From Rhodobacteraceae bacterium UBA3087 (lineage in GTDB: Bacteria > Pseudomonadota > Alphaproteobacteria > Rhodobacterales > Rhodobacteraceae), in contig DFBF01000072.1 in assembly GCA_002367285.1 (NCBI GenBank), positions 1 through 35,301 of the forward strand: a stretch of DNA of 35,301 bases. Reading direction: 5' to 3'. Under the pieces are notes generated by a model. The model ran no database searches. It was not told the origin of the DNA and worked only from the letters and a program-made list of their open reading frames with translations. Shown piece after piece: positions 9,866-33,313 of the stretch (position 1 is the first letter of the stretch; the number at the start of each line of letters is the position of its first letter). A program made the translations under genes and the position numbers.

Positions 9866-12637
9866 ATGACCGAGATTAGCCGCGTAGCGCTGTTTGGCAA
9901 GCTGAACAAGCTGGGGTATCAGGCCGTTGAAAGTGCAACGGTGTTCTGCAAGATGCGGGGGAATCCCTATGTCGAGGTGGTGCATTGGATGCACCAGATC
10001 CTGAACGGGCAGGACAGTGATATCCACCGGATCATCCAGCATTACGATCTGGACCCGGGCAAAATCGCCAGCGAGATGACCCGCGCGCTGGATATGCTGC
10101 CACGCGGGGCCAGCACGATTTCCGACCTGTCTGATCATCTGATGGATGCGATGGAACGCGGCTGGGTCTGGGGTTCGTTGCTGTATTCCGCAAATCAGGT
10201 GCGCACCGGTTATCTGTTGCTGGGGATGCTGAAAACCCCGGCCTTGCGAAACATCCTGTCCGGTATTTCGACGGAACTGGCCGGCATCGGCCCAGACGAC
10301 CTGGCCGACAATTTCAACGCGGCCACCGATGGTTCCCCCGAAGAACGGCTGGTGCCGCAGGATGGCACGCAAACGGGCGGCGGGGCTGTCCCGGGCGAAG
10401 CCTCGGATGCGATGTCCGCCCAGATGGGCGAACAAGAGGCGCTGTCTCAGTTCTGCACGGACATGACCGAACAAGCGCGCAACGGTGAAATCGACCCTAT
10501 TGTTGGTCGGGACGAGGAAATTCGCCAGATTGTCGACGTTCTGATGCGCCGTCGCCAGAACAACCCGATCCTGACGGGCGAGGCTGGCGTGGGCAAAACG
10601 GCGGTGGTCGAAGGGTTCGCGCTGCGCATCGCGCGCGGGGATGTGCCGCCTGCCTTGCAAGGCGCTCGGCTTTTGATGCTGGACGTGGGTCTGTTGCAGG
10701 CTGGGGCCAGTATGAAGGGTGAGTTCGAGAACCGTTTGAAGCAGGTCATCGAAGAGGTGCAGGCCAGTTCGACGCCAATCGTGATGTTTATAGACGAAAC
10801 ACATACACTGGTCGGGGCGGGGGGGGCTGCCGGAACCGGCGACGCCGCCAACCTGCTGAAACCTGCCCTGGCGCGGGGTACTTTGCGAACAATTGGCGCA
10901 ACAACATGGGCCGAATACAAAAAGCATATCGAAAAAGATCCTGCCCTGACCCGCAGATTTCAGGTGGTTCAGGTTGATGAGCCTGATGAGCAAAAGGCCA
11001 TCAAGATGATGCGCGGAATTGCGGGTATGCTTGAACGTCACCACGATGTTCAAATTCTGGACGAGGCAATTGAGGCTTCGGTAAAACTCTCGGCGCGCTA
11101 TATTCCTGCACGACAGCTTCCGGATAAATCGGTTAGTTTGTTGGACACAGCGGCAGCTCGTGTTTCGATTTCTCAGCATGCCGTTCCAGCCGAAGTCGAT
11201 GATTCTCAGCGGCGCATTCAGTCGCTGGAAACCGAACTTGAAATACTTGGACGCGAAGATGACTCTGGTTACGATGTCGTCGAACGCAAGCGGTATGTCG
11301 AAGAACTGCTGTTTCAGGAAAAAGGACGGTGCGCCAAGCTGGAAGAACGATGGGAAATGGAAAAATCCATTGTTTCGTCGATCAAAGATTGGTGGTCAAA
11401 GGTTACGGGTGCGGAACTGCCTGTGACCGATGCCTCTGACGCAGGTGATCAAGATGTGGCGACAGATAAGGATGCCGCCGCAAAAAGCGAAAACCAAGAA
11501 TCCGTATCTGCCGACGACGCCAAAGCAAGCGATCAGGACAGGTCGCAATTCTTGACCGAGCTGCGAAAGAAACGCGCGGAACTTACAGAGTTCCAGGGTG
11601 AATCTCCGATGGTACAGCCTATTGTTGATGCTCAGGTCGTAGCATCCGTTGTCGGCGACTGGACCGGCATCCCGGTTGGCCGCATGGTCAAGGACGAGAT
11701 CGAAACCATCCTGAACCTCGAAGAACACCTTGCCAAGCGGGTGATCGGCCAGGATCACGCGATGCAGATGATCGTCAAGCGCATTCAGACATCCCGCGCC
11801 GGGCTGGACAACCCGTCCAAACCCATCGGGGTCTTCCTGCTGGCAGGCACCAGCGGCGTGGGTAAAACCGAAACCGCGCTGGCGCTGGCCGAGGTGATGT
11901 ACGGCGGCGAACAGAACGTCATCACCATCAACATGTCCGAATACCAAGAGGCGCATACCGTCAGTTCCCTGAAAGGCGCCCCCCCCGGCTATGTCGGCTA
12001 CGGCGAAGGCGGGGTGCTGACCGAGGCGGTTCGGCGCAAGCCTTATTCAGTGGTGCTGCTGGACGAGGTCGAAAAGGCCCACCCGGACGTGCACGAGATC
12101 TTTTTCCAGGTGTTCGACAAGGGCGTGATGGAAGACGGCGAAGGCCGCACCATTGATTTCAAGAACACCCTGATCCTGCTGACGTCGAACGCCGGGTCGG
12201 AATTGATCATGGATCTGTGTTCAGATCCTGATCTGCTGCCAGAACCCGAAGGCATCGCCAAGGCGCTGCGCGATCCGTTGCTGAAAATCTTTCCGGCGGC
12301 GTTGCTGGGGCGCTTGGTATCGATCCCCTATTATCCGTTGTCGCCCGATATGATCGCCAAGATCACCGTTCTGCAACTGAACCGCATCAAGAAACGCGTG
12401 ACCGAGGCACACGGTGTGCCGTTCGAATACTCTGACGCGGTGGTCGACAAGATTGTCGAACGTTGCCAGGAACTGGAAAGCGGTGGCCGGATGATCGACG
12501 CGATTGTCACCAATACCATGCTGCCCGATATCTCGGCGGAATTCCTGCGCCGGATGATGGAAAGTAAAGACATCAACCGCGTGGCTATCGATGTCCAGGA
12601 TGATGGGTTCACCTATTCGTTTGATGCAGTTGAGTGA
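9866..12637 (+). CDS. clpV: T6SS AAA+ ATPase ClpV (TssH), 923 aa
   Basis: Start MTEISRVALFGKLN at 9866 (the upstream ORF extension overlaps tssG). Two Walker A motifs (GEAGVGKT, GTSGVGKT), Walker B motifs FIDE and LLDE, and PPGYVGYG. Confidence 0.97.
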   Translation: MTEISRVALFGKLNKLGYQAVESATVFCKMRGNPYVEVVHWMHQILNGQDSDIHRIIQHYDLDPGKIASEMTRALDMLPRGASTISDLSDHLMDAMERGWVWGSLLYSANQVRTGYLLLGMLKTPALRNILSGISTELAGIGPDDLADNFNAATDGSPEERLVPQDGTQTGGGAVPGEASDAMSAQMGEQEALSQFCTDMTEQARNGEIDPIVGRDEEIRQIVDVLMRRRQNNPILTGEAGVGKTAVVEGFALRIARGDVPPALQGARLLMLDVGLLQAGASMKGEFENRLKQVIEEVQASSTPIVMFIDETHTLVGAGGAAGTGDAANLLKPALARGTLRTIGATTWAEYKKHIEKDPALTRRFQVVQVDEPDEQKAIKMMRGIAGMLERHHDVQILDEAIEASVKLSARYIPARQLPDKSVSLLDTAAARVSISQHAVPAEVDDSQRRIQSLETELEILGREDDSGYDVVERKRYVEELLFQEKGRCAKLEERWEMEKSIVSSIKDWWSKVTGAELPVTDASDAGDQDVATDKDAAAKSENQESVSADDAKASDQDRSQFLTELRKKRAELTEFQGESPMVQPIVDAQVVASVVGDWTGIPVGRMVKDEIETILNLEEHLAKRVIGQDHAMQMIVKRIQTSRAGLDNPSKPIGVFLLAGTSGVGKTETALALAEVMYGGEQNVITINMSEYQEAHTVSSLKGAPPGYVGYGEGGVLTEAVRRKPYSVVLLDEVEKAHPDVHEIFFQVFDKGVMEDGEGRTIDFKNTLILLTSNAGSELIMDLCSDPDLLPEPEGIAKALRDPLLKIFPAALLGRLVSIPYYPLSPDMIAKITVLQLNRIKKRVTEAHGVPFEYSDAVVDKIVERCQELESGGRMIDAIVTNTMLPDISAEFLRRMMESKDINRVAIDVQDDGFTYSFDAVE

Positions 12638-12646: not shown

Positions 12647-13870
12647 ATGGCAACCGTAAACATTCCCATTTGTACAAATGATATGAAGCGGCCGCTAAAG
12701 GCTGCCACCAACCTGAAACATACAGTTCTGCCCAAGACCCTGAAATTCGAAGTCTATCTGCAGGTCGACAAGGAACTGCAGGAACAGATCGAAAATGACG
12801 CGGTTCTGGCTGAAAAGTTATTCAAGAAGGTCAGCGTAGAATACAAAAAAACCGTGACCGATCTTGCGGCAGTGGCCACGGATATCGACCGCGAATTTGG
12901 TAAGGAACTGAAACCCAAAGGCTGGGTTGAAAAAGAATGGCAGAAACGCGCGCCAGAGGTTTTTGAAGATGCCGAGGCGCGGATGCTGACCGAGTCCCGC
13001 AAACTGATCAAGAAATGGCAACAGGTCCGCAAAGATCGTAAAAGCTATGTCATCAAGTCGGCGGTCAAGGTGACAATCGGGTCTTTGTCGGTGGCGACGG
13101 CCTCTTTGGGAACTGCAATTGCCATTGGTGGGGTCGCCACCACTGGCGGCGCGGCGGTTCCGGGGCTGGTCGCGGCGATTTACGCCAACGTCAAAGCGGT
13201 GATTGCGCTGGACAAGGTGCTGCGACGGCTAAAGCGGGACGTGGATGAGGCGGAACAGGAACTGTGGAAGCAGTTGCGCTATCTTCTGGACGCCTATGCC
13301 GACAACACAAAAGGCCAGGTTGCTACCAAGGAACTGGCCAAAGCCGCAGTAGAGCAGTTTTTTTCCGTGTCGATGAAAAGCATCTCGAACGGCGAAAACG
13401 CGATGTTCGATTTCAAAGGCAAGCTCGACAAGGTTGAAATCAACCTGTCGAAAATGGGGATCAAGCTGAACAAGGCATTGACGGATCAGGCGGCCCTGGA
13501 CAAGCAGATCGAAGACAAGATCGGCAAGATGCTGAAACAGGCCAATTACAAATCCAAGAAACTGCCCAAGCTGGTGGCCTCTAGTAAAAAGCTGAACACC
13601 GCCGTCAACGATCTGTTGACCGATATCCCGTTGGCAATCCGCAAGGTTGATGGCGCCCGTGTTCGGCATCGCACGATGTACAAGCCCGCGATGGTGAACC
13701 TGAAAGCCAAGAAACCCGAATGGGTGCAATATGGCGAGGCTGCGCTGAAACTGGGTGATTTGGCGCTGGGCGCTGGGTTCACAGATTTCAGCGCGCTGGA
13801 TAGCATTCTGGTTCTGGTTGATTCAATCGGGGTAGAGTTTGACGACGTCCTGGCAGAAAAGCTTTTGTGA
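12647..13870 (+). CDS. Hypothetical Lys-rich helical protein with a central hydrophobic hairpin (candidate membrane-active effector)
   Basis: 407-aa ORF 9 nt after the clpV stop, GAGG RBS, no signal peptide. Near-uncharged Gly/Ala/Val segment at about aa 140-188. Confidence 0.8.
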   Translation: MATVNIPICTNDMKRPLKAATNLKHTVLPKTLKFEVYLQVDKELQEQIENDAVLAEKLFKKVSVEYKKTVTDLAAVATDIDREFGKELKPKGWVEKEWQKRAPEVFEDAEARMLTESRKLIKKWQQVRKDRKSYVIKSAVKVTIGSLSVATASLGTAIAIGGVATTGGAAVPGLVAAIYANVKAVIALDKVLRRLKRDVDEAEQELWKQLRYLLDAYADNTKGQVATKELAKAAVEQFFSVSMKSISNGENAMFDFKGKLDKVEINLSKMGIKLNKALTDQAALDKQIEDKIGKMLKQANYKSKKLPKLVASSKKLNTAVNDLLTDIPLAIRKVDGARVRHRTMYKPAMVNLKAKKPEWVQYGEAALKLGDLALGAGFTDFSALDSILVLVDSIGVEFDDVLAEKLL

Positions 13871-13941
13871 GTGGGCCAGTAGGCAAGATGACATAGCATT
13901 GGATCGGCACAAGATGGCTCTGACAGTCGGGAATCGGGATC

Positions 13942-14796
13942 ATGGATGAGATGACGGAAAACACCTCACAGACGTCACGCGACAAAGCTCGGGCGTTTGT
14001 CGAACGCAAGGCGGTGACAAATTCGATCCTGGGTGTGATCATCTTCAACGCGATCACGTTGGGCATGTCGACATCCCACGTTATCATGGCAGAAATCGGC
14101 GGCCTTTTGAACGTGATCGACAAGGTGGTTCTGACGATCTTCGTGGCCGAACTGCTGGTGAAATTCTATGCCTATCGCTGGAGTTTCTTCAAAAACGCCT
14201 GGAACATTTTCGACCTGTTGGTCGTCAGCATCGGCCTGTTGCCGGACAGGGGTGGGTTGTCGGCCTTGCGGGGTCTGCGGGTGATCCGGGCGATGCGGCT
14301 GCTATCCGTTGTGCCGCAGATGCGCGCCGTTGTGCAGGCGTTGCTGGACGCGCTGCCGGGGATGGGCGCGGTCATCATCATGTTGTCGATCGTTTATTAC
14401 GTCTTTGCCGTCATGGCGACGCTGATGTATGGGCCGACCTTTGATGTCTGGTTTGGCACGCTTGGTCGATCACTGTATTCTCTGTTCCAGATCATGACGT
14501 TGGAAAGCTGGTCAATGGGCATTGTGCGCCCGGTGATGGTTGAACACCCGACGGCCTGGGCGTTCTTTGTTCCCTTCATCATCATCACCGCGTTTTCTGT
14601 TCTGAACCTGTTCATCGGTCTGCTGGTCAACACCATGCAATCCGCAGTGGAGGACGAGGCCGAGGCGGAATTTGAAAAGCTGCGCGATCTGGTAAAATCT
14701 GAAACCGATCTGGTGGACGAACACGTTCTTGCGATGCACCAAGAGATCAAGGCGCTGCGGGCAGAGGTGGTTGCGATGAAAGGTAACGGCACATGA
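13942..14796 (+). CDS. Bacterial voltage-gated sodium channel (BacNav, NaChBac/NavAb family)
   Basis: Six hydrophobic segments; S3 WNIFD; S4 LRGLRVIRAMRLL (14269-14298); S4-S5 linker PQMRAVV; filter TLESWSM (14497-14517); S6 NLFIG; C-terminal coiled coil. Confidence 0.95.
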   Translation: MDEMTENTSQTSRDKARAFVERKAVTNSILGVIIFNAITLGMSTSHVIMAEIGGLLNVIDKVVLTIFVAELLVKFYAYRWSFFKNAWNIFDLLVVSIGLLPDRGGLSALRGLRVIRAMRLLSVVPQMRAVVQALLDALPGMGAVIIMLSIVYYVFAVMATLMYGPTFDVWFGTLGRSLYSLFQIMTLESWSMGIVRPVMVEHPTAWAFFVPFIIITAFSVLNLFIGLLVNTMQSAVEDEAEAEFEKLRDLVKSETDLVDEHVLAMHQEIKALRAEVVAMKGNGT

Positions 14797-17700
14797 CGGA
14801 CAGCTCACAGAAATTCATTGCCCGCAACCGCGCCCCACGGGTCCAGATCGAATATGATGTGGAACTTTACGGGTCCGAGAAGAAAGTGCAGCTGCCCTTT
14901 GTCATGGGGGTGATGTCTGATCTGTCGGGCAGGTCAAAGGTTCAACAGCCAAGTATCGCAGATCGCAGTTTTCTGGAAATTGACGTCGATAATTTCGATG
15001 ACCGGATGCGCGCGATGCAACCGCGCGCGGCATTTTCGGTGCCCAATACCCTGACGGGCGAAGGCAATATCGCCATCGATCTGACCTTCGAAAAGATGGA
15101 TGACTTTTCCCCGGCGGCAATTGCGGCCAAGGTCGAACCGCTGCGCCCCTTGCTAGAGGCGCGCAGTCAGCTATCTGATCTGATGGCCTATATGGATGGC
15201 AAAGCCGGTGCCGAGGCGCTGATCGAAAAGATCCTGTCGGACCCGGCTTTGTTATCGGCGGTGTCCAGTGCCGCATCCGCAGACGGTGACCAAACCGCCG
15301 CGCTGGACAGTCTGCGCGCGCTGACACCAGAGGATCCGCCGGACACCGATAGTACAGGCGGCATTCTGGATGCTCTGAAGGGCAACGCACCCGAAGATGC
15401 GCCCATTCCGGATCGTAGTGCTGACGTTCTGTCCAACCTGGCCGCCCTGCCGGTTACGCAAAACCTGACACCAGATACATCCGACGCTGTCTTTGACGGC
15501 TTGCGGCAAGCTGCGCCCGAAGACACGCCGCAAGACAATTCCCAGAGCGACGCCCTCGCCGCGCTGCGCACCCAGACTCCGGTAGATCAGCAGGGGCCCG
15601 ACACCGCAACAGAAGACGCGCTTGCAGCTCTGGCGGCTCAAACCCCGCAGGCCGTTGAAGAGGTTGATACAACTTCTGCTGCTTTCGGCAGCCTGGCCGC
15701 AGTGGAAACGCCCGAGATCATGGACGAGTCTCCTGATGCTCTGCTTACTGACCTTGCCAGTTCCGCGCCCATCGCCGCGCCGGAACCAGATAATACAACC
15801 GCTGCGCTGGACAGCCTGGCCGACCTTGAAGTGTCGGCAGCTGTCGAAGACACGACGGACGACCTTTTGGCGGAGCTGGCCGAAACCGCGCCCACGGTTG
15901 CGCCGGAACCGGATAACACCGTTTCCGCATTGGATAGCCTTTCTGGCCTCGAAATACCCGAGGTTGCGCAGGACACGACAGACGATTTGCTAGCCGAACT
16001 CGCCGGATCTGTGTCCAAAGAACCGTCGGAACCAGACACTATATCGGCTGCATTGGACAGTTTGGCCGGACTAGACGTGCCTGAGCGCGCGGAAGAAACA
16101 ATAGATGATCTGTTGGCTGATCTCGCGGATGCCGCCCCCGAAGCGATCGCTGAGTCGGAGGATGCAGCGTTAGTGGCTTTTGACAGTCTTGCTGACCTGG
16201 AAACCCCCGAGGATGGGGGCGCGGATACGCTGGACGACCTGCTGGCCGAAGACACTGGTATCGACGACTTTGATGATCTGTTGGGCGATCTTGGGCCGGA
16301 CGATACAGATGTTGCAGCAGTTGCGGAAACAGAGCCTGAAGCAACCGATCTTGACGATCTATTGGCCGAAGACTCAGGTACCGGCGACCTTGACGATCTG
16401 TTGGGCGATCTTGGGATGGACGACGCAACATCTGACACTGCGGCGGAAACGGTGGAAACTGCGGCAGAGGCGGACGAATTGGACGATCTGCTGGGCGATC
16501 TGGAGGATGATGCAGGCGACGATCTGGACGACCTTCTTGGGGACCTTGACGATCTCGGTGACGGTGAATCGGAGCAGGCAAGTACCACCTCGGATCCGGT
16601 GGGGGCGTCCTTATCGAAAGAGCCGGAATTTGCCTATGGTCAGCTCAGCGCTGACCGGCCCAGCGCCGAGCGGTTGAACCGAAAACGGTTCCGGTTGGCG
16701 GTCTTGGGCGACTTTTCCGGTCGGGCGGCGCGGGGGCAGTTGGAAACCGGTGATGCGCTGGCGGCCCGCAAGCCGATCCTGCTGGATCCCGATACGGTCG
16801 AGGACGTGATCGAAGGGTTCGCCACCGATCTGGTGTTGCCCATCGGCAAGGACGGATCCGGGATTGCGGTTAAACTGGGCGGGTTGGATGATCTGCACCC
16901 GGACGAGCTTTATAAAAATGTTGAGATTTTTACTGAACTGGTGGCCCTGCGCAGGCAACTGAACAGTGGGGCCACGGCGGAAAACGCCGCCCGTCAGTTG
17001 CGGCAATGGGGTGAAAAATACGACACACATGTTGCGCCGACGCGCAGCCGGTCATCTGGCAACTCGGTGCCCGCTGACCTTAAACTCAGCGATTTCCAGA
17101 AGCTGATCGGCGACACATCAGCCACGTTGACTCTGGCGTCGCCCCTGGACGAGTTGATGGCGCAAATCGTCGGCCCGCATATCCGGACACTCCCCGATGC
17201 CGACATCGTGGCGATGCGCGGCGCGGTGGATCAGGCGCTGTCAGCCGCAATGCGACTGGTACTGCACCACCCGGAATTCCAGTCAGTCGAGGCGCAGTGG
17301 CGATCGCTCGACCTGATCGCGCGCAGTATCGAAGATGACGATACGCTGGACGTCATGCTGTATGACATTTCCGCCGAAGAGATTGCCGCCGATCTGGCAA
17401 CAGCGGATGATCTGTCGCAAACCGGCTTTGTGCGATTGCTGACCGAAGGCCCGCTGGACGAGAAAAACGGCCGCGGCGGCTATTCGGCGCTGATCGGGTT
17501 GTATACATTCGAAGAAACGCCGCCGCATGCGGAATTGCTGGGCCGGATCGCCCGGGTTGCGGCGCATGTGGACGCGCCGTTTATCGCCGCGATCACCCCG
17601 ACATTCCTGGACACTGACAAACAGAACCGTCACCCGTTGGTGGCCAATGCCTGGGACATCCTGCGCGACATGCCCGAGGCAGGGCATCTGGGCCTGGCGT

Positions 17701-18299
17701 CACCCCGGTTCCTGCTGCGCCAGCCTTATGGCGCAAAATCCGAACCTATTTATGAGTTCGAGTTCGAGGAATTCACCATGTCGGCGGGGCTGCGCGGCAT
17801 GTTATGGGCCAATCCGGTGGTTCTGGTGGCGATCCTGCTGGCGAAATCTTTCCGCCAGAACGGCGCCAGTATGGGTCTTGGGTCAATCATGTCGCTAGGC
17901 GGGATACCGTTCTATTTTGTCAATGACCGCTATGGCGATCAGGTGGCTCTGCCCTGTACCGAACGCAATCTAACACTGGATAAGGTTGAACAGGCCAATG
18001 GCCGCGGGATCATGTCGGTTGTGTCGATCAAGGGGCGCGATGAAATCCGGCTGGCATCATTCAATTCCCTGGCGGGGGCCGAAATTCTGGGCCCGTGGAG
18101 CGGCATAGAAGCGCCACCGCCATCGCCGCCAAAACCCAAACCTGCTGCCGCCGCACCCGAAACAGTGGACTCTGACGACAGTTCAGGCAACGATAGCGAT
18201 CTGGACGACCTGCTGGCGGGTTTCGGCGATGATCTGGATTTAGGCGGTGACGATGATGACACCGACGCTGATCTGGCTGCGCTGCTGGCAGATTTATAA
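14793..18299 (+). CDS. Sheath chimera: TssB + acidic repeat linker + divergent TssB-like domain + TssC N-domain + acidic tail (1168 aa)
   Basis: aa 1-154 are about 80% identical to TssB at 2946 (manual count, 29 differences). Second TssB-like domain RFRLAVLGDFSGR...LDDLHPD. TssC-like VLHHPEFQSVEAQWRSL, PRFLLRQPYG and LPCTE motifs. Confidence 0.9.
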   Translation: MTDSSQKFIARNRAPRVQIEYDVELYGSEKKVQLPFVMGVMSDLSGRSKVQQPSIADRSFLEIDVDNFDDRMRAMQPRAAFSVPNTLTGEGNIAIDLTFEKMDDFSPAAIAAKVEPLRPLLEARSQLSDLMAYMDGKAGAEALIEKILSDPALLSAVSSAASADGDQTAALDSLRALTPEDPPDTDSTGGILDALKGNAPEDAPIPDRSADVLSNLAALPVTQNLTPDTSDAVFDGLRQAAPEDTPQDNSQSDALAALRTQTPVDQQGPDTATEDALAALAAQTPQAVEEVDTTSAAFGSLAAVETPEIMDESPDALLTDLASSAPIAAPEPDNTTAALDSLADLEVSAAVEDTTDDLLAELAETAPTVAPEPDNTVSALDSLSGLEIPEVAQDTTDDLLAELAGSVSKEPSEPDTISAALDSLAGLDVPERAEETIDDLLADLADAAPEAIAESEDAALVAFDSLADLETPEDGGADTLDDLLAEDTGIDDFDDLLGDLGPDDTDVAAVAETEPEATDLDDLLAEDSGTGDLDDLLGDLGMDDATSDTAAETVETAAEADELDDLLGDLEDDAGDDLDDLLGDLDDLGDGESEQASTTSDPVGASLSKEPEFAYGQLSADRPSAERLNRKRFRLAVLGDFSGRAARGQLETGDALAARKPILLDPDTVEDVIEGFATDLVLPIGKDGSGIAVKLGGLDDLHPDELYKNVEIFTELVALRRQLNSGATAENAARQLRQWGEKYDTHVAPTRSRSSGNSVPADLKLSDFQKLIGDTSATLTLASPLDELMAQIVGPHIRTLPDADIVAMRGAVDQALSAAMRLVLHHPEFQSVEAQWRSLDLIARSIEDDDTLDVMLYDISAEEIAADLATADDLSQTGFVRLLTEGPLDEKNGRGGYSALIGLYTFEETPPHAELLGRIARVAAHVDAPFIAAITPTFLDTDKQNRHPLVANAWDILRDMPEAGHLGLASPRFLLRQPYGAKSEPIYEFEFEEFTMSAGLRGMLWANPVVLVAILLAKSFRQNGASMGLGSIMSLGGIPFYFVNDRYGDQVALPCTERNLTLDKVEQANGRGIMSVVSIKGRDEIRLASFNSLAGAEILGPWSGIEAPPPSPPKPKPAAAAPETVDSDDSSGNDSDLDDLLAGFGDDLDLGGDDDDTDADLAALLADL
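15288..16560 (+). repeat. Degenerate coding tandem repeats in the chimera linker
   Basis: About 15 units of 20-21 aa; CGGAACC recurs at 15781, 15904 and 16027 (123-bp period). Followed by DLDDLL units with a 120-bp period (16233, 16353). Confidence 0.9.
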
Positions 18300-18362: not shown

Positions 18363-20498
18363 ATGGCAGAGAGTAAGCCACATGAACACTCACTGGTCTG
18401 GATGTCTGGCGGATATCAGGCCCAGGATATTCTGCTGAAGCGCGCGATTGTTCGCGAAGGGCTTAGCAAACTTACCGAGACCACAGTTGAATTTCAGTCA
18501 AAAAACAAAGCGGTCAAGCTGGAGGGGTTCGTCGGACAGGCCATGAATGTGCACATCATGGCTGAGGGCGGCAAGGAACGAATGTTCACCGGTGTGTGTG
18601 TATCAGCTGAAAACCTTGGGTTTCGCGACGGGTATGGCCATTACGTGGCCGAAGTTCGGCCCTGGTTCTGGATGCTGACCCGCACCCAGGACTGCCGGGT
18701 GTTTCAGGAGATGCACGTCGTAGATATCATCACTCAAGTCTTAAAAGACCGCGGGTTTTCCGAAATTCAGAACCGGTTAAGCGACACCTACGAGGTGCGC
18801 GCCTATTGCGTTCAATACCGCGAGACAGATTATGATTTCGTCTGCCGCCTGATGGAGGAAGAGGGCATCTATTACTATCTGGACAACAAGATGGATGCCA
18901 ACAAAATTGAAAAGCTTGTCCTGTGTGATGGCGTGGGCGGACATTCACCGGTGTCCGGCAATTCGACTTTGGAATATCACGCGCGCGATAATAAAGACCG
19001 CAGACGCGAGGATCACATTGCCGAATGGGCCGCCGAAGAAAGCCTGACGAGGGGCAAGGTAACCCTGAACGATTTTGACTTTATGAATCCAACGGGTGAA
19101 CAGAAAGCCATCAGCACGATCGAAAATGGCGATCACAGATACTTTAAACACGAGGTTTACGACTATTCCGGCCACCATCACGGTGAAAACGCCAGTGTCA
19201 AACAAGCCAGTCCAGCTAAAAAAGTTGTAGCGACCAAGCAGGCGCAAGTCCGGATGGAAGCCGAGGCGATCCGCCACAAACGCTGGCGCGGGGCAGGCAG
19301 TGTGCGCACCCTGGGCACCGGCAATTGGTTCAAGCTGCAGGACCACCCGGATGCTGATGCCAACAAGGAATACCTGGTTACTGACGCCATCCACTATATT
19401 CAGGTCTCATCAGATTTTGCCGATAAGGATCTGCGCCACGATCTTGACGCGCGGAACATGGATTTCCCCGAAGAGATGAAGGGCGATGCCTATGCCTGCA
19501 CCTTTGGCGCGATCCCCAAACTGGACCAGTTTCGCGCCCCACTGACGACGCCATGGCCGGAAATATCCGGGCTGCACACGGCTATTGTTGTGGGCCCCAG
19601 CGGCGAAGAGATTCACACTGACAAATACGGCCGGATCAAGGTTCAGTTCCATTGGGACCGCAAAGGCAAGAAGGACGAAAAATCGTCCTGCTGGGTCCGC
19701 GTGGTCACGCCATGGTCGGGTAAGAACTGGGGCATGGTCGCGGTGCCGCGCATGGGCCAGGAGGTGGTCATTCAGTTTGAAGAGGGCGACCCGGACAGGC
19801 CGATCTGTTCGGGTATGCTTTACAATGAAGACACAATGCCGCCCTACAAGTATCCTGACGATCAGACGCAGGTCGGGATACGGACGGATTCGTCAAAGGA
19901 TGTCAATGACGCCAAGGCGTATAATGAGCTGATGTTTGACGACAAAGCGGACAGTGAAATGATGCGCGTGCAGGCGCAAAAAGACCATCAGATGCTGATC
20001 AAGAACAAATCAGTGGTCACCATCGGTCTGGATGAGGTTGATACCGGTGATCATGATGATGAAGGCAGTTTAAGCCAGGTGGTCCAAAACCATGTTACGG
20101 AGATGATCAAGGATGGTGATCACTACGTCACCATCGAAAAGGGCGACGAAGAGATCAAGATAGAGACCGGCAGCCAGCTGTTGGAGATCAAGAAGGACAA
20201 GACTCAGACGATAGAAGGCAAACACACCAAGACGATCACTGGAAATGACGCCACAACCGTCAAAACCGGCAACATGACGGTCGACGTCAAATCGGGCAAG
20301 ATCACGATGACGGCGGCGATTGAAATCATGCTTAAGGTTGGGGGATCATCGATCAAAATCGACAATTCAGGTGTGACGATCAAAGGCCCGATTATCAAAA
20401 TCCAGGCCGACGGCATGGCAGAAATGAAAAGTCCGGCCACCACAGTCAAAGGCGACGGAATGCTGACCCTCAAGGGTGGCATTACGATGATCAACTAG
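18363..20498 (+). CDS. vgrG: T6SS spike VgrG (TssI), no C-terminal effector extension
   Basis: YCVQYRETDYDFVCRLMEEEGIYY, DKYGRIKVQFHWDR, PRMGQEV and GDPDRP motifs; beta-repeat C-terminus. Confidence 0.97.
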   Translation: MAESKPHEHSLVWMSGGYQAQDILLKRAIVREGLSKLTETTVEFQSKNKAVKLEGFVGQAMNVHIMAEGGKERMFTGVCVSAENLGFRDGYGHYVAEVRPWFWMLTRTQDCRVFQEMHVVDIITQVLKDRGFSEIQNRLSDTYEVRAYCVQYRETDYDFVCRLMEEEGIYYYLDNKMDANKIEKLVLCDGVGGHSPVSGNSTLEYHARDNKDRRREDHIAEWAAEESLTRGKVTLNDFDFMNPTGEQKAISTIENGDHRYFKHEVYDYSGHHHGENASVKQASPAKKVVATKQAQVRMEAEAIRHKRWRGAGSVRTLGTGNWFKLQDHPDADANKEYLVTDAIHYIQVSSDFADKDLRHDLDARNMDFPEEMKGDAYACTFGAIPKLDQFRAPLTTPWPEISGLHTAIVVGPSGEEIHTDKYGRIKVQFHWDRKGKKDEKSSCWVRVVTPWSGKNWGMVAVPRMGQEVVIQFEEGDPDRPICSGMLYNEDTMPPYKYPDDQTQVGIRTDSSKDVNDAKAYNELMFDDKADSEMMRVQAQKDHQMLIKNKSVVTIGLDEVDTGDHDDEGSLSQVVQNHVTEMIKDGDHYVTIEKGDEEIKIETGSQLLEIKKDKTQTIEGKHTKTITGNDATTVKTGNMTVDVKSGKITMTAAIEIMLKVGGSSIKIDNSGVTIKGPIIKIQADGMAEMKSPATTVKGDGMLTLKGGITMIN

Positions 20499-28700: not shown

Positions 28701-29313
28701 GGCGGACGTGGCGATGCAGGATTTTGCCAAACTGTTTTCCCCGGGCGGCCTGATTGATGGGTTCTTTAACGAGAACCTGCAAAAATTTGTCGACACCCGA
28801 ACCCGCCCGTGGACATGGAAACGGCTGAACGATGTCGATCTGGGGATCTCGGCGGCCGTGTTGCAGCAGATGCAATACGCGTCCGAAATCCGCGATGCGT
28901 TTTTCTCGGCCGGTCCGGCCCCTGTGGTACAGTTTCAGATCACCCCCGAAGCACTGGACCCCAAGGCCAAATCGGTCCTGCTGGAAATCGACGGGCAACA
29001 GGTTGGGTTTGCGCATAAAGGCGGTCAGCCGGACCCGGTTGGGGTGACATGGCCCGGGTCGGTTGGCTTGGCGCGGGTGACCTTTCAGCCGAACAAGAAA
29101 AAGATCGAAAATTCGCTGTCGCGCAATGGTCCCTGGGCCTGGTTTCGACTGTTGGATGCCGCCGAAGTGCGGCGCACCAATGTGTCTGACCGCAAGCGGG
29201 TAATTTTCAACATCGGCGGGCGGATCGCCATTTTTCAACTGCAATCAGGGTCTGTGATCAACCCGTTTGCCCTGCCGGCACTGGCCAAGTTCAGCTGCCC
29301 CAAGTCGATGTAA
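25744..29313 (+). CDS. tssM: T6SS membrane complex TssM (IcmF)
   Basis: N-terminal TM segments, LPWYVMIGPPGAGKTT Walker A, DTAGRY, RGVYYTSGTQEG and GPWAWFRL motifs. Confidence 0.98.
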   Translation: MIRRFIFPLFKSIYSLLIIVAAILSACIWYFAPLIGGETWRPFDSITSRVVTISVIWVFFLSLIIFIFWRRRRRDKQMTEEIAESVEDIGDDLISEEFGEMRGKFKTAMAELRKSKNGRRHLNELPWYVMIGPPGAGKTTAIVNSGLQFPLAEKMGKSAIGGVGGTRNCDWWFTNNAVLIDTAGRYTTQESDAETDNAAWLGFLGLLKKYRKRQPINGAMIAISLSDLCLQDEITQKSHAQAVRRRLNELREKLGVRFPVYVLFTKADLIAGFSEFFDNLGKDDREQVWGFTLPLDNSKAESSPMAAFDQEFALLLSQLNAQSLERMQSETDHQRRALVAGFPSQVASMRGVAREFLTEVFQDNRYEKRHMLRGVYYTSGTQEGTPIDRLMLGMAQTFGIGRQAIGTGQGTGRSFFLTRLFEGVVFPEAGLVSSDDKVERRYRWTRRAAIAATVLVAIGTGALWVRSYLGNRDLIKQAAEQVELYQAAAATLPPSPVGDTDLPPVVAALNNLRDLPANPVLDDPDPETRLTYGLYQGEVIGTQAAQTYRAALNQRFLPRLLLRLEEQMAANLNNPDILYEALKIYLMLGLQGPMNTDLVKEWMQIDWSLAYSGVVRQPLRDDLNDHLNALLSQPMEEIALNGPLVEQAQGLLSEMPLAQRVYTGIVNSPAATALPKWRISDAAGPAVKRVMTRSSGKALNEGVEGIFTYSGFNDVFLPEAVSVAERVQSESWVLGPRGEAEQTEGALLALSRDVLDLYYNDFIARYDSILGDVDIIPMESLSHAVEVTNVLSGPTSPIVNLLTEISRETRLTEDRSTLDAESLSGGASQVAAIEARSNLSVQGQILMEALVNSATNSGGEPPKPPGSYVEERFEWLHQLVDRVEGQPSQLDSLMGVLTEVYQELNKMSFSGVSSGAEGGQSLVQFQQVASRIDGPVQRWASQITTGSSGIAADGTRASINARWQASVLPFCQQALDNRYPFNRRAQADVAMQDFAKLFSPGGLIDGFFNENLQKFVDTRTRPWTWKRLNDVDLGISAAVLQQMQYASEIRDAFFSAGPAPVVQFQITPEALDPKAKSVLLEIDGQQVGFAHKGGQPDPVGVTWPGSVGLARVTFQPNKKKIENSLSRNGPWAWFRLLDAAEVRRTNVSDRKRVIFNIGGRIAIFQLQSGSVINPFALPALAKFSCPKSM

Positions 29314-29993
29314 TGACGACCGGGTTTGGCGCATTCGGCAAGATGCCGTCGGTGGGTGACTTCTTTCGCTTCGCCGCGCCGCCGGGGTTTGTTGCCGCCT
29401 GGGATAGCTGGATTCAGCGCGGTATGCTGGACGTTCAGACGGCGCTGGGCGCAACCTGGGACGACCATTACATGTCGGCCCCGATCTGGCGGTTCTGCCT
29501 GTCGCCCGGACTGGCCGGGCCGCAAAAGGTGCTCGGTGTGTTGATGCCATCGGTGGACCGGGTCGGGCGGCGCTTTCCACTGACCCTGATGGCGGCCTTA
29601 CAGACACCTGGCCCGGCGCAGCTGGACCATTTCTGCGAAGAGCCGCTGTTTTTGCGGCTGGAAGACACCGCATTGGCCGCCCTTGATGACACGATGACCC
29701 GCGAGCGGTTGGAACAGGTCCTTGCCGCCGTCCCGCCACCGCAATTTCGCGGAAATGCCCCGGTGCGCGCCGCCGGGTCCAGTCTGATCCTGACACAGGC
29801 TGGTCCCGAAGGGCTGTTGCCCGATCTGGCCGCCGGTCTTTTGGCTGGTCGGTTTGTCCAGCCCAGTATCTGGAGTGCGCTGATCAACGACAGGCCAAGG
29901 CTGATGATCACCGAAGGTTTACCGCAAGGCCCTGACATGCAAGGTTTGTTCAACCTGAACGCGCCTGTATGGAACGAGGCCAAACCTGTATGA
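29313..29993 (+). CDS. tagF: T6SS post-translational repressor TagF
   Basis: FGKMPSVGDF, APIWRF and MPSVDRVGRRFPL motifs. Confidence 0.95.
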   Translation: MTTGFGAFGKMPSVGDFFRFAAPPGFVAAWDSWIQRGMLDVQTALGATWDDHYMSAPIWRFCLSPGLAGPQKVLGVLMPSVDRVGRRFPLTLMAALQTPGPAQLDHFCEEPLFLRLEDTALAALDDTMTRERLEQVLAAVPPPQFRGNAPVRAAGSSLILTQAGPEGLLPDLAAGLLAGRFVQPSIWSALINDRPRLMITEGLPQGPDMQGLFNLNAPVWNEAKPV

Positions 29994-30712
29994 CTGACCT
30001 GCGTGCAACCCGCTATAACGCCAAAACCCATATTGGCCTGAAACGCAAAGTAAACGAAGACGCGATCCTTGCGTTGCCGGATCATGATATCTGGGTGGTC
30101 TCTGACGGCATGGGCGGCCACGAGGCGGGCGATTACGCCAGCCGCCTGATCACCGATTCAATCGCCACCATCCCCCTCGGGCTGGACCCAACTGCGCGAA
30201 TGCACGCCCTGCGCGGGGCGATTCAGACAGCGCACCGGATTATCGTGCAAGAGTCCGATTCCCGGGGCCGGGGCGTGATTGGCGCGACGGTTGTGGCCCT
30301 GATGCTGGCCAACAGCCATTTTGTCGGCATCTGGGCCGGGGACAGCCGCATTTACCGGCTGCGGGATGGTCAGATCGAAATGCTGACCACCGATCATTCC
30401 GCAGTGGCCGATTTTGTGCTGACAGGTCAGATGACCTGGGACGAGGCCGAACAGCACCCGCAATCCAACGCCATCACAAGGGCCGTTGGCGTCGGCGACG
30501 AACTGGAACTGGACAAAGTGCGGGGCGAGGTGCAGCCGGGCGACCGGTTCCTGGTTTGCTCAGACGGGCTGACAAAATACGCCACGTTTGGCATCTTGCA
30601 GGACACGTTAAGTAATTATCCGATCGAAACAGTGTCTGACCGCCTGATCCAGATTGCCCTGACCGGCGGCGGCGGCGACAATATTTCGGTGATCGTCGTG
30701 GATATCCTGTAG
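29990..30712 (+). CDS. pppA: PP2C-type Ser/Thr phosphatase PppA
   Basis: RKVNEDA, SDGMGGH, GDSRIY, CSDGL and DNISV motifs; ATGA overlap with tagF. Confidence 0.92.
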   Translation: MTDLRATRYNAKTHIGLKRKVNEDAILALPDHDIWVVSDGMGGHEAGDYASRLITDSIATIPLGLDPTARMHALRGAIQTAHRIIVQESDSRGRGVIGATVVALMLANSHFVGIWAGDSRIYRLRDGQIEMLTTDHSAVADFVLTGQMTWDEAEQHPQSNAITRAVGVGDELELDKVRGEVQPGDRFLVCSDGLTKYATFGILQDTLSNYPIETVSDRLIQIALTGGGGDNISVIVVDIL

Positions 30713-30737
30713 CGGCTGGCAGCCCGACAGGGACGGA

Positions 30738-31031
30738 TCAGCGCAGCAAGTGTTTAAGTTGCCCGCGGGTAAATTCTAAATCCTTGGTCAGGGCCTTATA
30801 GTCTTTGGCGATACGCGCGCGCTCTTCTGCGGCCTTCTTACGCTCTGCATCCGTGGTTGCCTTTAGCTCTTTGCGAAAGGCATCATAAGACTCTCGCTGA
30901 TGCTTGCTAAGCGCCTTCATGACACCGCTGATGGCGCTATCGACCTCGGTTTTCAGGCGAGTATGACGGATTTCGGCATTCTTCATCCGCTCTTCCAGAT
31001 CCTTGATGCGCTTTTCTGGCGATCCGGGCAT
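30738..31031 (-). CDS. Small basic coiled-coil hypothetical protein (97 aa)
   Basis: AGGAG 7 nt upstream of the ATG at 31031; fills the gap after ppkA; heptad-like charged helix. Confidence 0.7.
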   Translation of the reverse strand: MPGSPEKRIKDLEERMKNAEIRHTRLKTEVDSAISGVMKALSKHQRESYDAFRKELKATTDAERKKAAEERARIAKDYKALTKDLEFTRGQLKHLLR

Positions 31032-31075
31032 GGCTGGTCTCCTCAATGGGTAAAATGCAATGGAAAGACCCTGTT

Positions 31076-33313
31076 TCAGGGCTTTGCGGTTGTCAGTATC
31101 CGGCTGTCCAGTGACAGGATATTGGTGGAATCTGCTGCAAAATACTCCTGCAGCGCCTTGGCGTATCCAACAGCAGATTCCGTTCCTGGCCGAAGCCCGT
31201 CAAACAGCGGCTGTGTGGAATGCAGAACAATCACTTTGCTTTTGCCCAAGGTGCTCTCGTCAACCGTGAATCCCAGCAAGCCCTTTTTGGCGACATCGTC
31301 CAAACTAAATGCCACACGGACAGCGACCGGGCCAACCCGACCGTCGCGTAGATGGGCGATGTCATTGTCCTGACGGTTGATGAAAGGCAACAGGTGATAC
31401 ACGTCGCCCGACACATCCAGCACAGAAACGGTCAGATACCCATCTTTCACATCCGCAGGCAGGGTCACGTCGATCACAGGGTTTTCCCCGACAAAGAACC
31501 GCCCCGACGGGTTGGGTTCGTTCCGATCACCAACGGTAAACACCACGTCGATGCCGCTGGTGGGGGCGCTGGGCAGATGGTTTTCGATCAGGCACAGGGT
31601 GGGGTTCAGAACCTCGACATCCAGCACGATCTTGCGTTCGTCCACCGCTGCGCGGAGCGCGTCGAACAAACCAACCCTGGTGGCAGTTTCGGCGACGCGC
31701 CCGGTCACAGTGACAGGGGTTTGCGGCCCATAGCCCATCGCTGGGGCGCCGGGCAGGTCCAGCGGGCCGCAATCAGCCAGGTCCTGGATAATCGGCTGCA
31801 GCTCGGCGATGGGCAGGAACAGCGGTTCCAACCGGAACGCAGCCTTGCCGTTCAGTGCGCCGGGCAAACCGTCGGCAAACGCACTGACCACCCGGTTATG
31901 AGTGTCACTGTCGGTTGCCACACCGCTCAGCTGGGCCCTGTTGCCGCTGATCGCCAGCCGCCATTCGCGCAACCCGCCCAGTTGCGCCAGGGTCGCAAGA
32001 ACATCTGCGCCCCAACTGTCAGCCACAGCCCCGCTGGCCAGTGTCAGTTCGGCGCTGCCGGATTGGTCGTCCATCAGGGCCACCAACCCATCACGCATCT
32101 CTTCCGAGGGCACATAGCCAACCGCGCGGGCCGGCCCGGTGGCGGGCTGTTCCACAATCAGCGAATAAGGGTCTGCAAGGGGGTATTTTGGCCCCATCAA
32201 CCCGTCAAACGCCCCAGACAAATAGCTACCCGCCCCACCGGCGACCAGCACCAGAACCAGCAGCGCGGCAATCAGGCCCCCACGAGACTTTTTCGGCTCA
32301 GCCGACACGGGTTGTTGCGGTGTTGGCTTGGGTGCCGGTCGCGGCGCTTTGGGCTCTGCTCTCGGCTTGGGCGCGGGTGTCGGCTCTGGCTCTGGCTCAG
32401 GGTCGGGTGCGCGGGCAAGCGGGACAATAACTGTGGCGTCTGGGTCAACAGGGGCAGGGGCGTCCGCCGAGATGTCTGCGGCGGTATCTGTGGGTTTTTC
32501 CAGAAAGGCCAGAACCTCGGCCGCGCTTTGCAGGCGGGCCGCAGGGTCGGGGGCGGTCATTCGGTCAATCAGATGTTTTAGCGGCTCGGGCACGCCTTCG
32601 GTGTCCAGCGGTTCGCTCTTTTTTTTGACCACCTCCATCGGGTTGCTGCCGATGTTTGGTGGCGCCCCGCGAAAATTAGCCAGCAACAGTGCGCCCAGCG
32701 AATATATGTCTGATCTTGCATCGGTATCGCCGCTAAGTTGCTCGGGCGCGGCATAAGCATATTTTCCGGCAAATTCATTGCCGACAATGGTCTCTGCCCC
32801 CGGATTAGTGTCTTTGGCGATGCCAAAATCAATAATCACCGCCTGCGCCGGATCACCGTCACGCAGGATGATGTTGTCGGGCGACAGATCGCGATGCACG
32901 ATGTTGTGGATATGCGCAGCCTGCAACCCTTCGGCCACACGACGGCAGACAGTCAGCAGATCTGCAGCCTCCATCGGGCCTTGTTGCAGCTTTTTGTCCA
33001 GGCCCGGCCCCTGAACATAATCCATCACCAGATAGACATGACCATCCGGTGTTCGGTGATTTTCCGAATATCGCACAACCGCATCATGCCGAACCTCGCG
33101 AATTTCTTCTTCGCGGGTCAGCAGGACAAGGTAATCTTCATTGCCGGAAAACTCAGACCGCAACACCTTTAGCGCGGCCAGCCGCCCTGAAATCTCGCTG
33201 CGGGCCTTGTAAACGTCCGAAGTGCCGCCGCGTCCCAGCAGCTCTTCGATCCGGTAGGTATTGTTAAGCAGTTCGCCGGGCTGAAACGCATCGCCGGGAC
33301 GGGGTTCAAGCAT
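31076..33313 (-). CDS. ppkA: Membrane-bound Ser/Thr kinase, PpkA-like, with a periplasmic C-terminal region
   Basis: Hanks motifs LGRGG, ALKVL, HRDLSPDN, DFG, APE and DIYSLG; Pro-rich linker, one TM segment, then a C-terminal region ending in a DUF4384-like domain (family recalled, not searched). Confidence 0.88.
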   Translation of the reverse strand: MLEPRPGDAFQPGELLNNTYRIEELLGRGGTSDVYKARSEISGRLAALKVLRSEFSGNEDYLVLLTREEEIREVRHDAVVRYSENHRTPDGHVYLVMDYVQGPGLDKKLQQGPMEAADLLTVCRRVAEGLQAAHIHNIVHRDLSPDNIILRDGDPAQAVIIDFGIAKDTNPGAETIVGNEFAGKYAYAAPEQLSGDTDARSDIYSLGALLLANFRGAPPNIGSNPMEVVKKKSEPLDTEGVPEPLKHLIDRMTAPDPAARLQSAAEVLAFLEKPTDTAADISADAPAPVDPDATVIVPLARAPDPEPEPEPTPAPKPRAEPKAPRPAPKPTPQQPVSAEPKKSRGGLIAALLVLVLVAGGAGSYLSGAFDGLMGPKYPLADPYSLIVEQPATGPARAVGYVPSEEMRDGLVALMDDQSGSAELTLASGAVADSWGADVLATLAQLGGLREWRLAISGNRAQLSGVATDSDTHNRVVSAFADGLPGALNGKAAFRLEPLFLPIAELQPIIQDLADCGPLDLPGAPAMGYGPQTPVTVTGRVAETATRVGLFDALRAAVDERKIVLDVEVLNPTLCLIENHLPSAPTSGIDVVFTVGDRNEPNPSGRFFVGENPVIDVTLPADVKDGYLTVSVLDVSGDVYHLLPFINRQDNDIAHLRDGRVGPVAVRVAFSLDDVAKKGLLGFTVDESTLGKSKVIVLHSTQPLFDGLRPGTESAVGYAKALQEYFAADSTNILSLDSRILTTAKP

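What the first reader, a model, noticed from the sequence alone, without database searches (positions are those of the whole stretch)
12647..18299. Three-gene insert in the T6SS core operon: candidate membrane-potential-coupled T6SS module
Seen: three co-oriented genes with short gaps (9 nt after clpV, 71 nt, then a 4-nt overlap) sit between clpV and vgrG. They encode a hydrophobic-hairpin protein, a voltage-gated Na+ channel and an acidic-repeat sheath chimera. Established: none is among the 13 core T6SS components, and some T6SSs fire in response to membrane damage (P. aeruginosa H1 via TagQRST-PpkA); no TagQRST is visible here. Inference: depolarisation opens the channel, and the cation flux is read by the very acidic sheath-incorporated chimera, altering assembly or contraction. 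An alternative is a toxin plus ion-homeostasis pair. I know of no description of such a module but cannot confirm novelty.
Basis: partly seen in the sequence, partly recalled or inferred. Interest (0 to 1): 0.92.

Follow-up and report, generated by a model that had tools for sequence, protein, structure and literature searches.

The report
Sodium channel resident in T6SS operon
Many roseobacter-group bacteria keep their own lineage of voltage-gated sodium channel inside the gene cluster of their protein-injecting weapon (type VI secretion), where it likely acts as a sensor of membrane-voltage collapse, whereas the two neighbouring genes are an already described sheath fusion protein and a swappable, probably toxic cargo gene rather than parts of one fixed module.

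Summary
Observation confirmed; the three-gene-module reading is not. The genes are separable. (1) The 1168-aa sheath chimera is TssCL, described in 2022 (PMC9515649), function untested. (2) The 407-aa lysine-rich protein sits in a swappable slot, and its family also occurs as orphan genes; likely cargo. (3) The channel is the real finding: an intact BacNav lineage, distinct from the ordinary roseobacter channel (SH-aLRT 98-100), under purifying selection (dN/dS 0.13). It lies inside a T6SS cluster in 35 of 35 family genomes and 15 of 15 metagenome contigs; 0 of 25 and 0 of 65 other channels do. One IS-flanked copy sits in a genome without TssC. All three genes occur together in only 10 of the 35; channel and TssB-headed TssCL each occur without the other. 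The lineage has lost the S1 glutamate (78 of 79) and has Ala/Ser at NavAb position 206 (78 of 79), predicting a high-threshold, slowly inactivating Na+ current. My best reading is a depolarisation input to the T6SS; no experiment supports it. I found no paper linking BacNav to T6SS. This scan noted the channel twice before on other DNA.

The parts
9866..12637 (+). clpV/tssH, upstream boundary; P. aeruginosa ClpV1-type N-domain (Arg6/Asp87, blocked groove class)
   Evidence: TIGR03345; alignment to 4uqw; R6 in 60 of 60 and D87 in 59 of 60 loci with the residue present
12647..13870 (+). ORFA: 407-aa lysine-rich helical protein in a swappable cargo slot; likely T6SS effector
13064..13216 (+). hydrophobic Gly/Ala-rich stretch of ORFA (about residues 140-190), candidate membrane-inserting hairpin; residues 147-169 unmodelled (pLDDT <50)
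13942..14796 (+). BacNav voltage-gated sodium channel of a T6SS-resident lineage
14068..14070 (+). Ser43, in place of the S1 outer glutamate (NavAb E32); lineage-diagnostic loss
   Evidence: alignment to 24js_A; non-acidic in 78 of 79 lineage members, acidic in 51 of 53 other alphaproteobacterial channels
14260..14298 (+). S4 voltage sensor with four gating arginines (R110, R113, R116, R119)
   Evidence: all four in 79 of 79
14497..14517 (+). selectivity filter TLESWSM
   Evidence: 78 of 79 distinct lineage sequences
14590..14592 (+). Ala217 = NavAb position 206, where a small residue removes early inactivation
   Evidence: A 72, S 6, T 1 of 79; PMC6363407
14793..18299 (+). TssCL, 1168-aa TssB-linker-TssB'/TssC' fusion (described by Suria et al. 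2022)
14793..15272 (+). TssCL head: complete TssB copy, 76-81% identical to the cluster's own TssB
15273..16607 (+). TssCL acidic linker with about 41-aa repeats and repeated LDDLL / ALDSL motifs
16608..18107 (+). TssCL single-chain TssB'/TssC' unit; sheath fold, lacking the TssB N-terminal arm and the TssC C-terminal (VipB_2) domain
   Evidence: AF2 pLDDT 89.7; Foldseek 5n8n_B E 5e-18
18108..18299 (+). TssCL acidic tail ending in a conserved D-x-x-x-LAALL-x-x-L C-terminal motif
   Evidence: pattern met in 106 of 107 distinct complete tails
18363..20498 (+). vgrG, downstream boundary
   Evidence: TIGR03361
21429..22898 (+). fha/tagH; its linker also carries LDDLL-like motifs; candidate receiver pathway
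29313..33313 (.). tagF, pppA (+) and ppkA-type Ser/Thr kinase (31076-33313, -): post-translational control set, candidate receiver of a channel signal

Best explanation
The insert is three separable accessories of a roseobacter H1-like T6SS, and its unusual member is a T6SS-resident voltage-gated Na+ channel that likely works as a membrane-depolarisation input to the secretion system. Shown: the channel lineage is intact, under purifying selection, inherited with the core genes and almost confined to this cluster. Inferred: it is co-transcribed with the operon. Predicted from single mutations in other BacNavs: it stays shut at normal potential (loss of the S1 glutamate) and, once a puncture or pore-forming attack collapses the potential, passes a long-lasting Na+ current (Ala at NavAb 206). 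Inferred and untested: that current or the deepened depolarisation would raise T6SS assembly or firing, most plausibly through PpkA-PppA-Fha-TagF and not through the acidic linker. TssCL would join the sheath through its TssB head and trail a non-polymerising sheath-like unit and acidic docking motifs, as a scaffold for an unknown partner. ORFA is likely exchangeable helical cargo, possibly membrane-inserting and aimed at eukaryotes, and is not needed for the channel's role.
For: Channel-first survey: 35 of 35 lineage members in 400 family genomes lie in T6SS clusters, 25 of 25 ordinary copies examined do not. Independent sample: 15 of 15 against 0 of 65 metagenome contigs. One side of a branch, SH-aLRT 100 against 25 roseobacter copies and 98 with other alphaproteobacterial channels included (quick trees). 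At least 8 genomes hold both this and an ordinary copy. Open ORF of 275 aa or more in 86 of 86 loci; S4 arginines and filter glutamate in 79 of 79; median dN/dS 0.13 against 0.06-0.14 for eight other cluster genes; distances track ClpV (rho 0.77) as well as TssG does (0.74). Stays inside the operon after moving to hcp-tagJ in G283 and without TssC2 in G221. Stop/start overlap with tssCL in 67 of 73 loci at -4, -8 or -11. Gating residues; T206A abolishes early inactivation (PMC6363407); NavSheP E43 mutants activate at strongly depolarised voltages (PMC5071848). ORFA family in 18 of 400 genomes, all among the 45 with this accessory-bearing T6SS, 8 of them not in the profile; 11 orphan copies among non-T6SS genes.
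Against: No experiment, expression data or interaction links the channel to firing. It is dispensable: absent from 7 visible TssC2-bearing loci and from 8 of 8 same-subtype clusters lacking TssC2. One intact lineage member is kept between transposase genes in a complete genome with no TssC match (G460), so it can persist without a T6SS. The association is one clade, probably one ancient insertion, so the counts are not independent events. A small residue at position 206 is not T6SS-specific: S in 16 of 26 other alphaproteobacterial channels, S or A in 33 of 65 other metagenome channels. T206A also shifts activation about 25 mV negative, against the predicted E32 effect; the net threshold is unknown. 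Na+ influx during collapse would deepen depolarisation, a cost. ORFA's likeness to ClyA-family toxins is below threshold.
Confidence: 0.42

Rival explanations
1. The channel is a co-expressed support gene, not a trigger: it supplies Na+ re-entry for pH or ion homeostasis in the surface- or host-attached, T6SS-on state, and the operon only provides the right timing.
For: This is the one role shown for a BacNav (alkaliphilic Bacillus; passages of PMC4225499). The channel survives intact without a T6SS in G460. All 13 channel-less loci carry the short TssC2 and include Stagnihabitans and Rhodobacter records, which I recall as freshwater.
Against: Many carriers already have an ordinary BacNav. The lineage has fixed gating changes and is almost never found beside other genes. 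The freshwater link is confounded with ancestry.
Confidence: 0.3
2. The channel is a passenger: inserted once into a mobile T6SS island and kept for a benefit unrelated to secretion, locked in place by operon position and overlap with tssCL.
For: Single clade; several losses; Leisingera T6SS clusters are reported on plasmids (PMC4337385); IS capture of the channel alone in G460.
Against: Only 1 of 51 lineage members found by channel-first searches (35 + 15 + G460) lies outside a T6SS cluster; relocation in G283 kept it inside the operon; no broken copy in 86 loci.
Confidence: 0.15
3. First reader's module: the three genes act together, and the acidic TssCL linker on the sheath reads the cation flux through the channel.
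For: Channel directly upstream of TssB-headed TssCL in 48 of 48 visible loci and 27 of 35 channel-first loci; overlapping stop/start; 34 of 35 channel genomes carry some TssC2/TssCL. The TssB head is conserved as a sheath-competent copy.
Against: Channel without the TssB head in 8 of 35; TssB-headed TssCL without channel in 5 genomes; ORFA slot empty in 13 of 35. Linker length varies 343-1319 aa with unconserved sequence. The filter type excludes Ca2+; swapping Na+ for K+ changes ionic strength little (general knowledge).
Confidence: 0.07
4. ORFA is a pore-forming toxin and the channel is its immunity or compensating partner.
For: Adjacency in 22 of 35 loci counting any lysine-rich slot gene; weak ClyA-family rows.
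Against: ORFA-family genes occur without the channel in 9 loci and as 11 orphans; the channel occurs with an empty slot or unrelated occupants; a depolarisation-opened Na+ channel would worsen a pore's effect.
Confidence: 0.04

Closest known systems
TssCL of roseobacter T6SS1 (Suria et al. 2022, PMC9515649; abstract, section 12, discussion passage and one supplement seen)
   Same: Same protein: two VipA domains and one VipB domain, first VipA near-identical to TssB, in a group-3 H1-like cluster that also has TssB and TssC; my loci include that paper's Leisingera ANG-M7 and JC1.
   Different: The paper gives no function and has 0 hits for 'channel' or 'ion transport' in text and in the one supplement held as text. 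New here: the near-invariant C-terminal motif, the LDDLL repeats, the missing polymerisation elements and the upstream channel.
BacNav channels NavAb, NavMs, NaChBac, NavSheP, NavRosD
   Same: 6-TM Ion_trans fold by sequence, four S4 arginines, D60/E70/D91 countercharges, TLESWSM filter, C-terminal coiled coil.
   Different: Own lineage; lacks the S1 outer glutamate; natural Ala at NavAb 206; encoded in a T6SS operon. No characterised BacNav was found linked to a secretion system in my searches. Whether NavRosD belongs to this lineage could not be checked.
P. aeruginosa H1-T6SS with TagQRST-PpkA-PppA-Fha1-TagF (sensing role recalled) and TagJ-assisted ClpV1 (PMC4239648, passages)
   Same: Gene order, TagJ, ClpV1-type Arg6/Asp87 groove, Fha, TagF, PppA, kinase.
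   Different: No TagQRST hit and no TssJ hit in the window; carries TssCL, a BacNav and a lysine-rich cargo slot.
ClyA/HBL-family alpha pore-forming toxins (XaxB, SmhB, AhlB, ClyA)
   Same: ORFA is a long helical bundle with a central hydrophobic stretch; these appear as weak rows (Foldseek E 0.02-0.36; ClyA pore Z 11.0, rmsd 3.8, 200 aligned; Atlas 0.83).
   Different: No match passes threshold; ORFA has a small N-terminal alpha/beta part, 13% Lys, and no partner subunit gene.
Orphan anti-eukaryotic T6SS2 effectors of Vibrio coralliilyticus (PMC11371242, four passages)
   Same: Orphan genes without a neighbouring immunity gene; some protease-like.
   Different: No sequence comparison was made; ORFA secretion and target are untested.

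Membership tests
BacNav | Single-domain 6-TM Ion_trans protein | tested here: met
   PF00520 133 bits, cut-off 25; ungapped or one-gap alignment to solved chains
BacNav | S4 with arginines at every third position and S2/S3 countercharges | tested here: met
   R1-R4, D60, E70, D91 in 79 of 79; S1 outer glutamate lost
BacNav | TLESWSM-type Na+ filter | tested here: met
   78 of 79
BacNav | Voltage-gated Na+-selective current | not testable with these tools
   needs patch clamp
Ordinary roseobacter BacNav orthologue group | Groups with the stand-alone roseobacter channel | tested here: not met
   separate branch, about 50% identity
TssCL | VipA + second short VipA + VipB in one long chain, beside separate tssB and tssC | tested here: met
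   definition
Canonical TssC sheath subunit | Both VipB and C-terminal VipB_2 domains | tested here: not met
   VipB_2 found in TssC 3465-4961, not in TssCL; model matches about 300 columns of 430-460-aa sheath chains
ClpV-docking LLDEII helix | LLDE[IM]-type motif paired with an uncharged ClpV groove | tested here: not met
   LDDLL/LDELM motifs present but ClpV has Arg6/Asp87, the class reported not to bind this way
ClyA/HBL alpha pore-forming toxin (ORFA) | Significant sequence or fold match | tested here: inconclusive
   no Pfam, PDB or Foldseek match past threshold; weak rows only
T6SS effector (ORFA) | Confined to T6SS-bearing genomes, in cluster or orphan | tested here: met
   18 of 400, all among 45 carriers; 10 of the 18 contributed to the profile
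T6SS effector (ORFA) | T6SS-dependent secretion and toxicity | not testable with these tools
   needs secretome and toxicity assay
H1-type damage sensing (TagQRST-PpkA) | TagQ, TagR, TagS, TagT encoded | tested here: inconclusive
   no hit among 25 window proteins; rest of the 75%-complete genome not searched for them
H1-type damage sensing (TagQRST-PpkA) | PpkA, PppA, Fha, TagF encoded | tested here: met
Fixed three-gene module | The three genes co-occur | tested here: not met
   10 of 35

The most novel reading that the evidence does not exclude
Roseobacter T6SSs are electrically gated: a dedicated high-threshold, non-inactivating BacNav fires a Na+ spike when the inner membrane is punctured or depolarised, replacing TagQRST as the attack sensor, and this spike launches sheath assembly, with TssCL as a sheath-borne multivalent scaffold that loads a large undescribed family of lysine-rich anti-eukaryotic cargo proteins. 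It would be the first ion channel wired into a secretion machine and a direct answer to what opens BacNavs in living bacteria.
Probability: 0.25. Interest if true: 0.92.

Novelty: new variant of a known kind. Interest (0 to 1): 0.66.

Why it matters
What opens bacterial voltage-gated sodium channels at resting potentials near -180 mV is stated as an open question (PMC4225499). A lineage that has stayed inside one T6SS operon across dozens of genera gives a concrete setting in which to test it, in cultured strains (Leisingera, Ruegeria, Sulfitobacter). If it controls firing it is a new kind of T6SS input. Even if not, it is a natural BacNav variant with two gating changes known only from engineered mutants, and the slot beside it points to a large unannotated candidate effector family (672 clusters at E up to 1e-10) in bacteria for which PMC9515649 reported no described T6SS function as of 2022.

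Tried and rejected
Literature: no paper held all of 'type VI secretion', 'voltage-gated sodium channel', 'Roseobacter'; none held all five terms; the one paper was unrelated by its listing; among listed papers none combined T6SS with BacNav (20 of 421 listed, 25 of 1,158); 'TssCL' occurs in one paper. Open-access library only; figure and PDF supplements of PMC9515649 beyond one spreadsheet were not seen and may label the channel. Irie et al. 2010 was not held. RNA runs: none was listed. Complex prediction of the channel tail with the TssCL C-terminal unit was not available, so no verdict. Promoter/terminator scan of 12400-18600: chance level (5 against 2.8 +/- 1.7; 4 against 5.6 +/- 2.2). PADLOC: nothing convincing. 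Gene conversion between tssB and the TssCL head: mostly not seen; a hint in G346 and G129/G275 only. ClpV-docking role for LDDLL repeats: considered, lowered because this ClpV is of the blocked-groove class. ORFA: no family in Pfam, NCBIfam, PDB sequence or Foldseek; VIA-align top rows are generic bundles. orf1-type N-domain: 0 of 145 ORFA-family representatives. The careful tree did not finish; quick trees are quoted. The support value printed was unreliable after re-rooting and was replaced. Wider reach: in 400 class and 370 phylum genomes the only lineage members outside the family sample were G460; divergent channels in other T6SS types were checked only in 25 fetched clusters (none).
Full report
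Setting. The window is contig C170 of a 75%-complete genome and holds a T6SS cluster: tssA B C, hcp, tagJ, tssE F G, clpV, the three-gene insert, vgrG, DUF6931, PAAR, fha, tssK L M, tagF, pppA and, on the other strand, a Ser/Thr kinase and an OmpA-domain gene. Related loci are Rhodobacterales. Each is single-copy in this assembly.

The chimera is known. The 1168-aa protein has a TssB head 76% identical to the cluster's TssB over 166 residues, an acidic linker, and a second weak VipA stretch fused to a VipB N-terminal domain. Suria et al. 2022 (PMC9515649; abstract, section 12 and passages read) named this TssCL and left its function open. What I add: the head is about 80% identical to its own TssB in 24 genomes while third positions are near saturation, so it is held by selection (dN/dS 0.09). 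The C-terminal unit folds confidently (pLDDT 89.7) as a sheath protein (5n8n_B, E 5e-18) but lacks the TssB N-terminal arm and the VipB_2 domain; from the recalled sheath architecture it should not polymerise. The linker is 343-1319 aa and 15-41% acidic in 72 loci (duplicates included), built here from about 41-aa repeats. The chain ends in a near-invariant acidic amphipathic motif (106 of 107), also in short forms of about 570 aa that lack head and linker. The LDDLL repeats resemble the LLDEIM ClpV-binding helix (PMC4239648, passages), but this ClpV has the Arg6/Asp87 groove reported to block that mode, so the partner is unknown.

The channel is a T6SS-resident lineage. In 400 family genomes, 255 have a BacNav match; identities split into 35 at 58-91% and the rest near 50% or lower. 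All 35 lie inside a T6SS cluster: 33 between clpV and tssCL/tssC2, one between a slot gene and vgrG with no TssC2 (G221), one moved to between hcp and tagJ (G283). The 25 lower-identity copies I fetched (of about 220 genomes) have no T6SS gene within 4-8 kb, apart from one weak OmpA-type hit. The lineage is one side of a branch with SH-aLRT 100 (80 against 25 rows) and 98 when 26 other alphaproteobacterial channels are included (20 of the lineage rows used); both are quick trees. It is intact (86 of 86 loci), keeps all gating arginines and the filter glutamate (79 of 79), has median dN/dS 0.13 over 251 non-independent pairs and tracks ClpV distances as closely as TssG does. From the other side, 101 of the 400 genomes match TssC or TssC2; 44 have TssC2/TssCL, of which 34 have the channel, 7 visibly lack it in the locus and 3 are cut by contig ends; of the other 57 only G221 has it. 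Outside the family sample, 400 class and 370 phylum genomes gave one further member: G460, a single-contig 99%-complete genome with no TssC match, where the intact gene is flanked by transposase-like ORFs (labels from my reading of the translations) and is sister to the Ruegeria conchae copy. These counts are of kin and probably reflect one insertion and several losses.

Predicted gating. Aligned to the NavAb chain 24js_A, Ala217 falls on position 206 and Ser43 on Glu32. Position 206 is A 72, S 6, T 1 in 79 lineage sequences, T in 23 of 27 ordinary roseobacter copies, but S in 16 of 26 other alphaproteobacterial channels and S or A in 33 of 65 other metagenome channels, so the small residue is not unique to the lineage. 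T206A and T206S abolish early inactivation and T206A shifts activation about 25 mV negative (PMC6363407, passages). The S1 glutamate is lost in 78 of 79 and acidic in 51 of 53 others; NavSheP E43 mutants activate at highly depolarised voltages (PMC5071848, passages; equivalence of E43 to NavAb E32 is recalled and fits the spacing to D60/N49). The filter type passes little Ca2+ (PMC12919392, passages). NaChBac is also reported as mechanosensitive (PMC10038658, abstract only). The prediction is a high-threshold, long-lasting Na+ current; the two changes pull the threshold in opposite directions, so it must be measured.

The first gene is slot cargo. Among the 35 channel-first loci the slot holds a lysine-rich gene in 22 (ORFA family in 13) and is empty in 13; among the 80 loci, 64 show the whole region, and of 48 with TssB-headed TssCL (all with the channel) 28 have a slot gene and 20 do not; of 16 without the head, 3 have the channel and 13 do not, 11 of those 13 having a slot gene. 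The closest relative found (91% channel identity) has no slot gene. Occupants fall into several lysine-rich families; one resembles EspS/peptidase C80 clusters in the Atlas (0.92, 0.91, a lead). A profile of the ORFA family matches 18 of 400 genomes, all among the 45 with TssC2 or the channel; 10 supplied profile sequences, 8 did not. Eleven copies in 7 genomes are orphans among non-T6SS genes with no evident immunity gene, though my ORF filter skipped genes under 90 aa. That pattern is the one reported for anti-eukaryotic effectors in Vibrio coralliilyticus (PMC11371242, passages). ORFA is the second most lysine-rich ORF of 200 aa or more in this assembly. Its model (pLDDT 75) is a helical bundle with an unmodelled hydrophobic stretch; ClyA-family toxins recur as weak rows but none passes. 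The family is large: 672 clusters at E up to 1e-10, 137 of 145 retrieved having a hydrophobic 19-mer; named members are 'hypothetical' (10 looked up), and their contexts were not checked.

Verdict on the module. ORFA family, channel and TssB-headed TssCL occur together in 10 of 35 loci; TssB-headed TssCL lacks the channel in 5 genomes; all three accessories are missing from 8 of 8 fetched same-subtype clusters without TssC2. The block is a set of accessories gained together or in turn, with a real but loose tie between channel and TssC2/TssCL (34 of 35; overlapping stop and start in 67 of 73).

Mechanism. Shown: residence, integrity, selection, separability. Inferred: co-transcription, sheath incorporation of TssCL, effector status of ORFA. 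Predicted: gating. Untested: any effect on firing. I put 0.42 on the channel being a depolarisation input within this three-accessory picture, 0.30 on a co-expressed homeostasis role, 0.15 on a passenger, 0.07 on the acidic-linker module and 0.04 on toxin-immunity.

Novelty. TssCL is published. I found no paper joining a BacNav to a T6SS (open-access library, listings only). This scan noted the channel in T6SS operons twice before on other genomes; those are unchecked AI notes, seen after I had stated the same reading, and are not counted as support. Searches of earlier notes with ORFA, the TssCL C-terminal part and keywords returned nothing. Other papers touched: PMC4337385 (one passage), PMC4225499, PMC5460948 and PMC5048182 (passages).

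Noticed in passing
window 119-1642 (-): 507-aa gene divergent from tssA with a lysine-rich 110-aa N-domain conserved upstream of tssA in many relatives and weakly shared (E about 1e-6 to 1e-9) with two orphan ORFA-family proteins and one other ORF in G175; possible effector marker domain.
   Followed up: partly
L241:18662-19597 / L242:662-1597 (G460): T6SS-lineage channel alone between transposase-like genes in a complete genome of another family with no TssC match; sister to the Ruegeria conchae copy.
   Followed up: yes
L006:7869-9077 and 4 relatives: Alternative slot occupant with a His...Cys motif pair; Atlas neighbours named EspS (0.92) and peptidase C80 (13% of a cluster); no Pfam or PDB hit.
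   Followed up: partly
window 18108-18299 and 21429-22898: The acidic LDDLL-type motif recurs in the TssCL tail, the TssCL linker and the Fha linker, suggesting a shared unknown partner.
   Followed up: partly
L102, L303, L304: T6SS-lineage channels with filter TLEGWSD in place of TLESWSM, which may change ion selectivity.
   Followed up: no
L216-L220 (G068, G236, G118, G224, G200): A third, divergent Ion_trans clade (about 40% identity) in five genomes that carry TssCL/TssC2 without the T6SS-lineage channel; no T6SS gene within 1.5 kb.
   Followed up: partly
L141:1866-2183 (-): A remnant of the TssCL C-terminal tail between clpV and vgrG in a cluster that has otherwise lost the gene.
   Followed up: no
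L075:9923-13639: Long TssCL form that keeps the acidic linker but has lost the TssB head, with the channel still upstream.
   Followed up: no
L007, L015, L053, L057, L059-L062, L065-L067, L070, L073: All 13 channel-less loci have the short TssC2; named ones are Stagnihabitans and Rhodobacter, recalled as freshwater, hinting at a tie to external Na+.
   Followed up: no
window 34127-34966 (+) and 33359-33940 (-): Membrane-anchored M15 peptidase and an OmpA-domain protein beside ppkA; possible cell-wall remodelling accessory.
   Followed up: no
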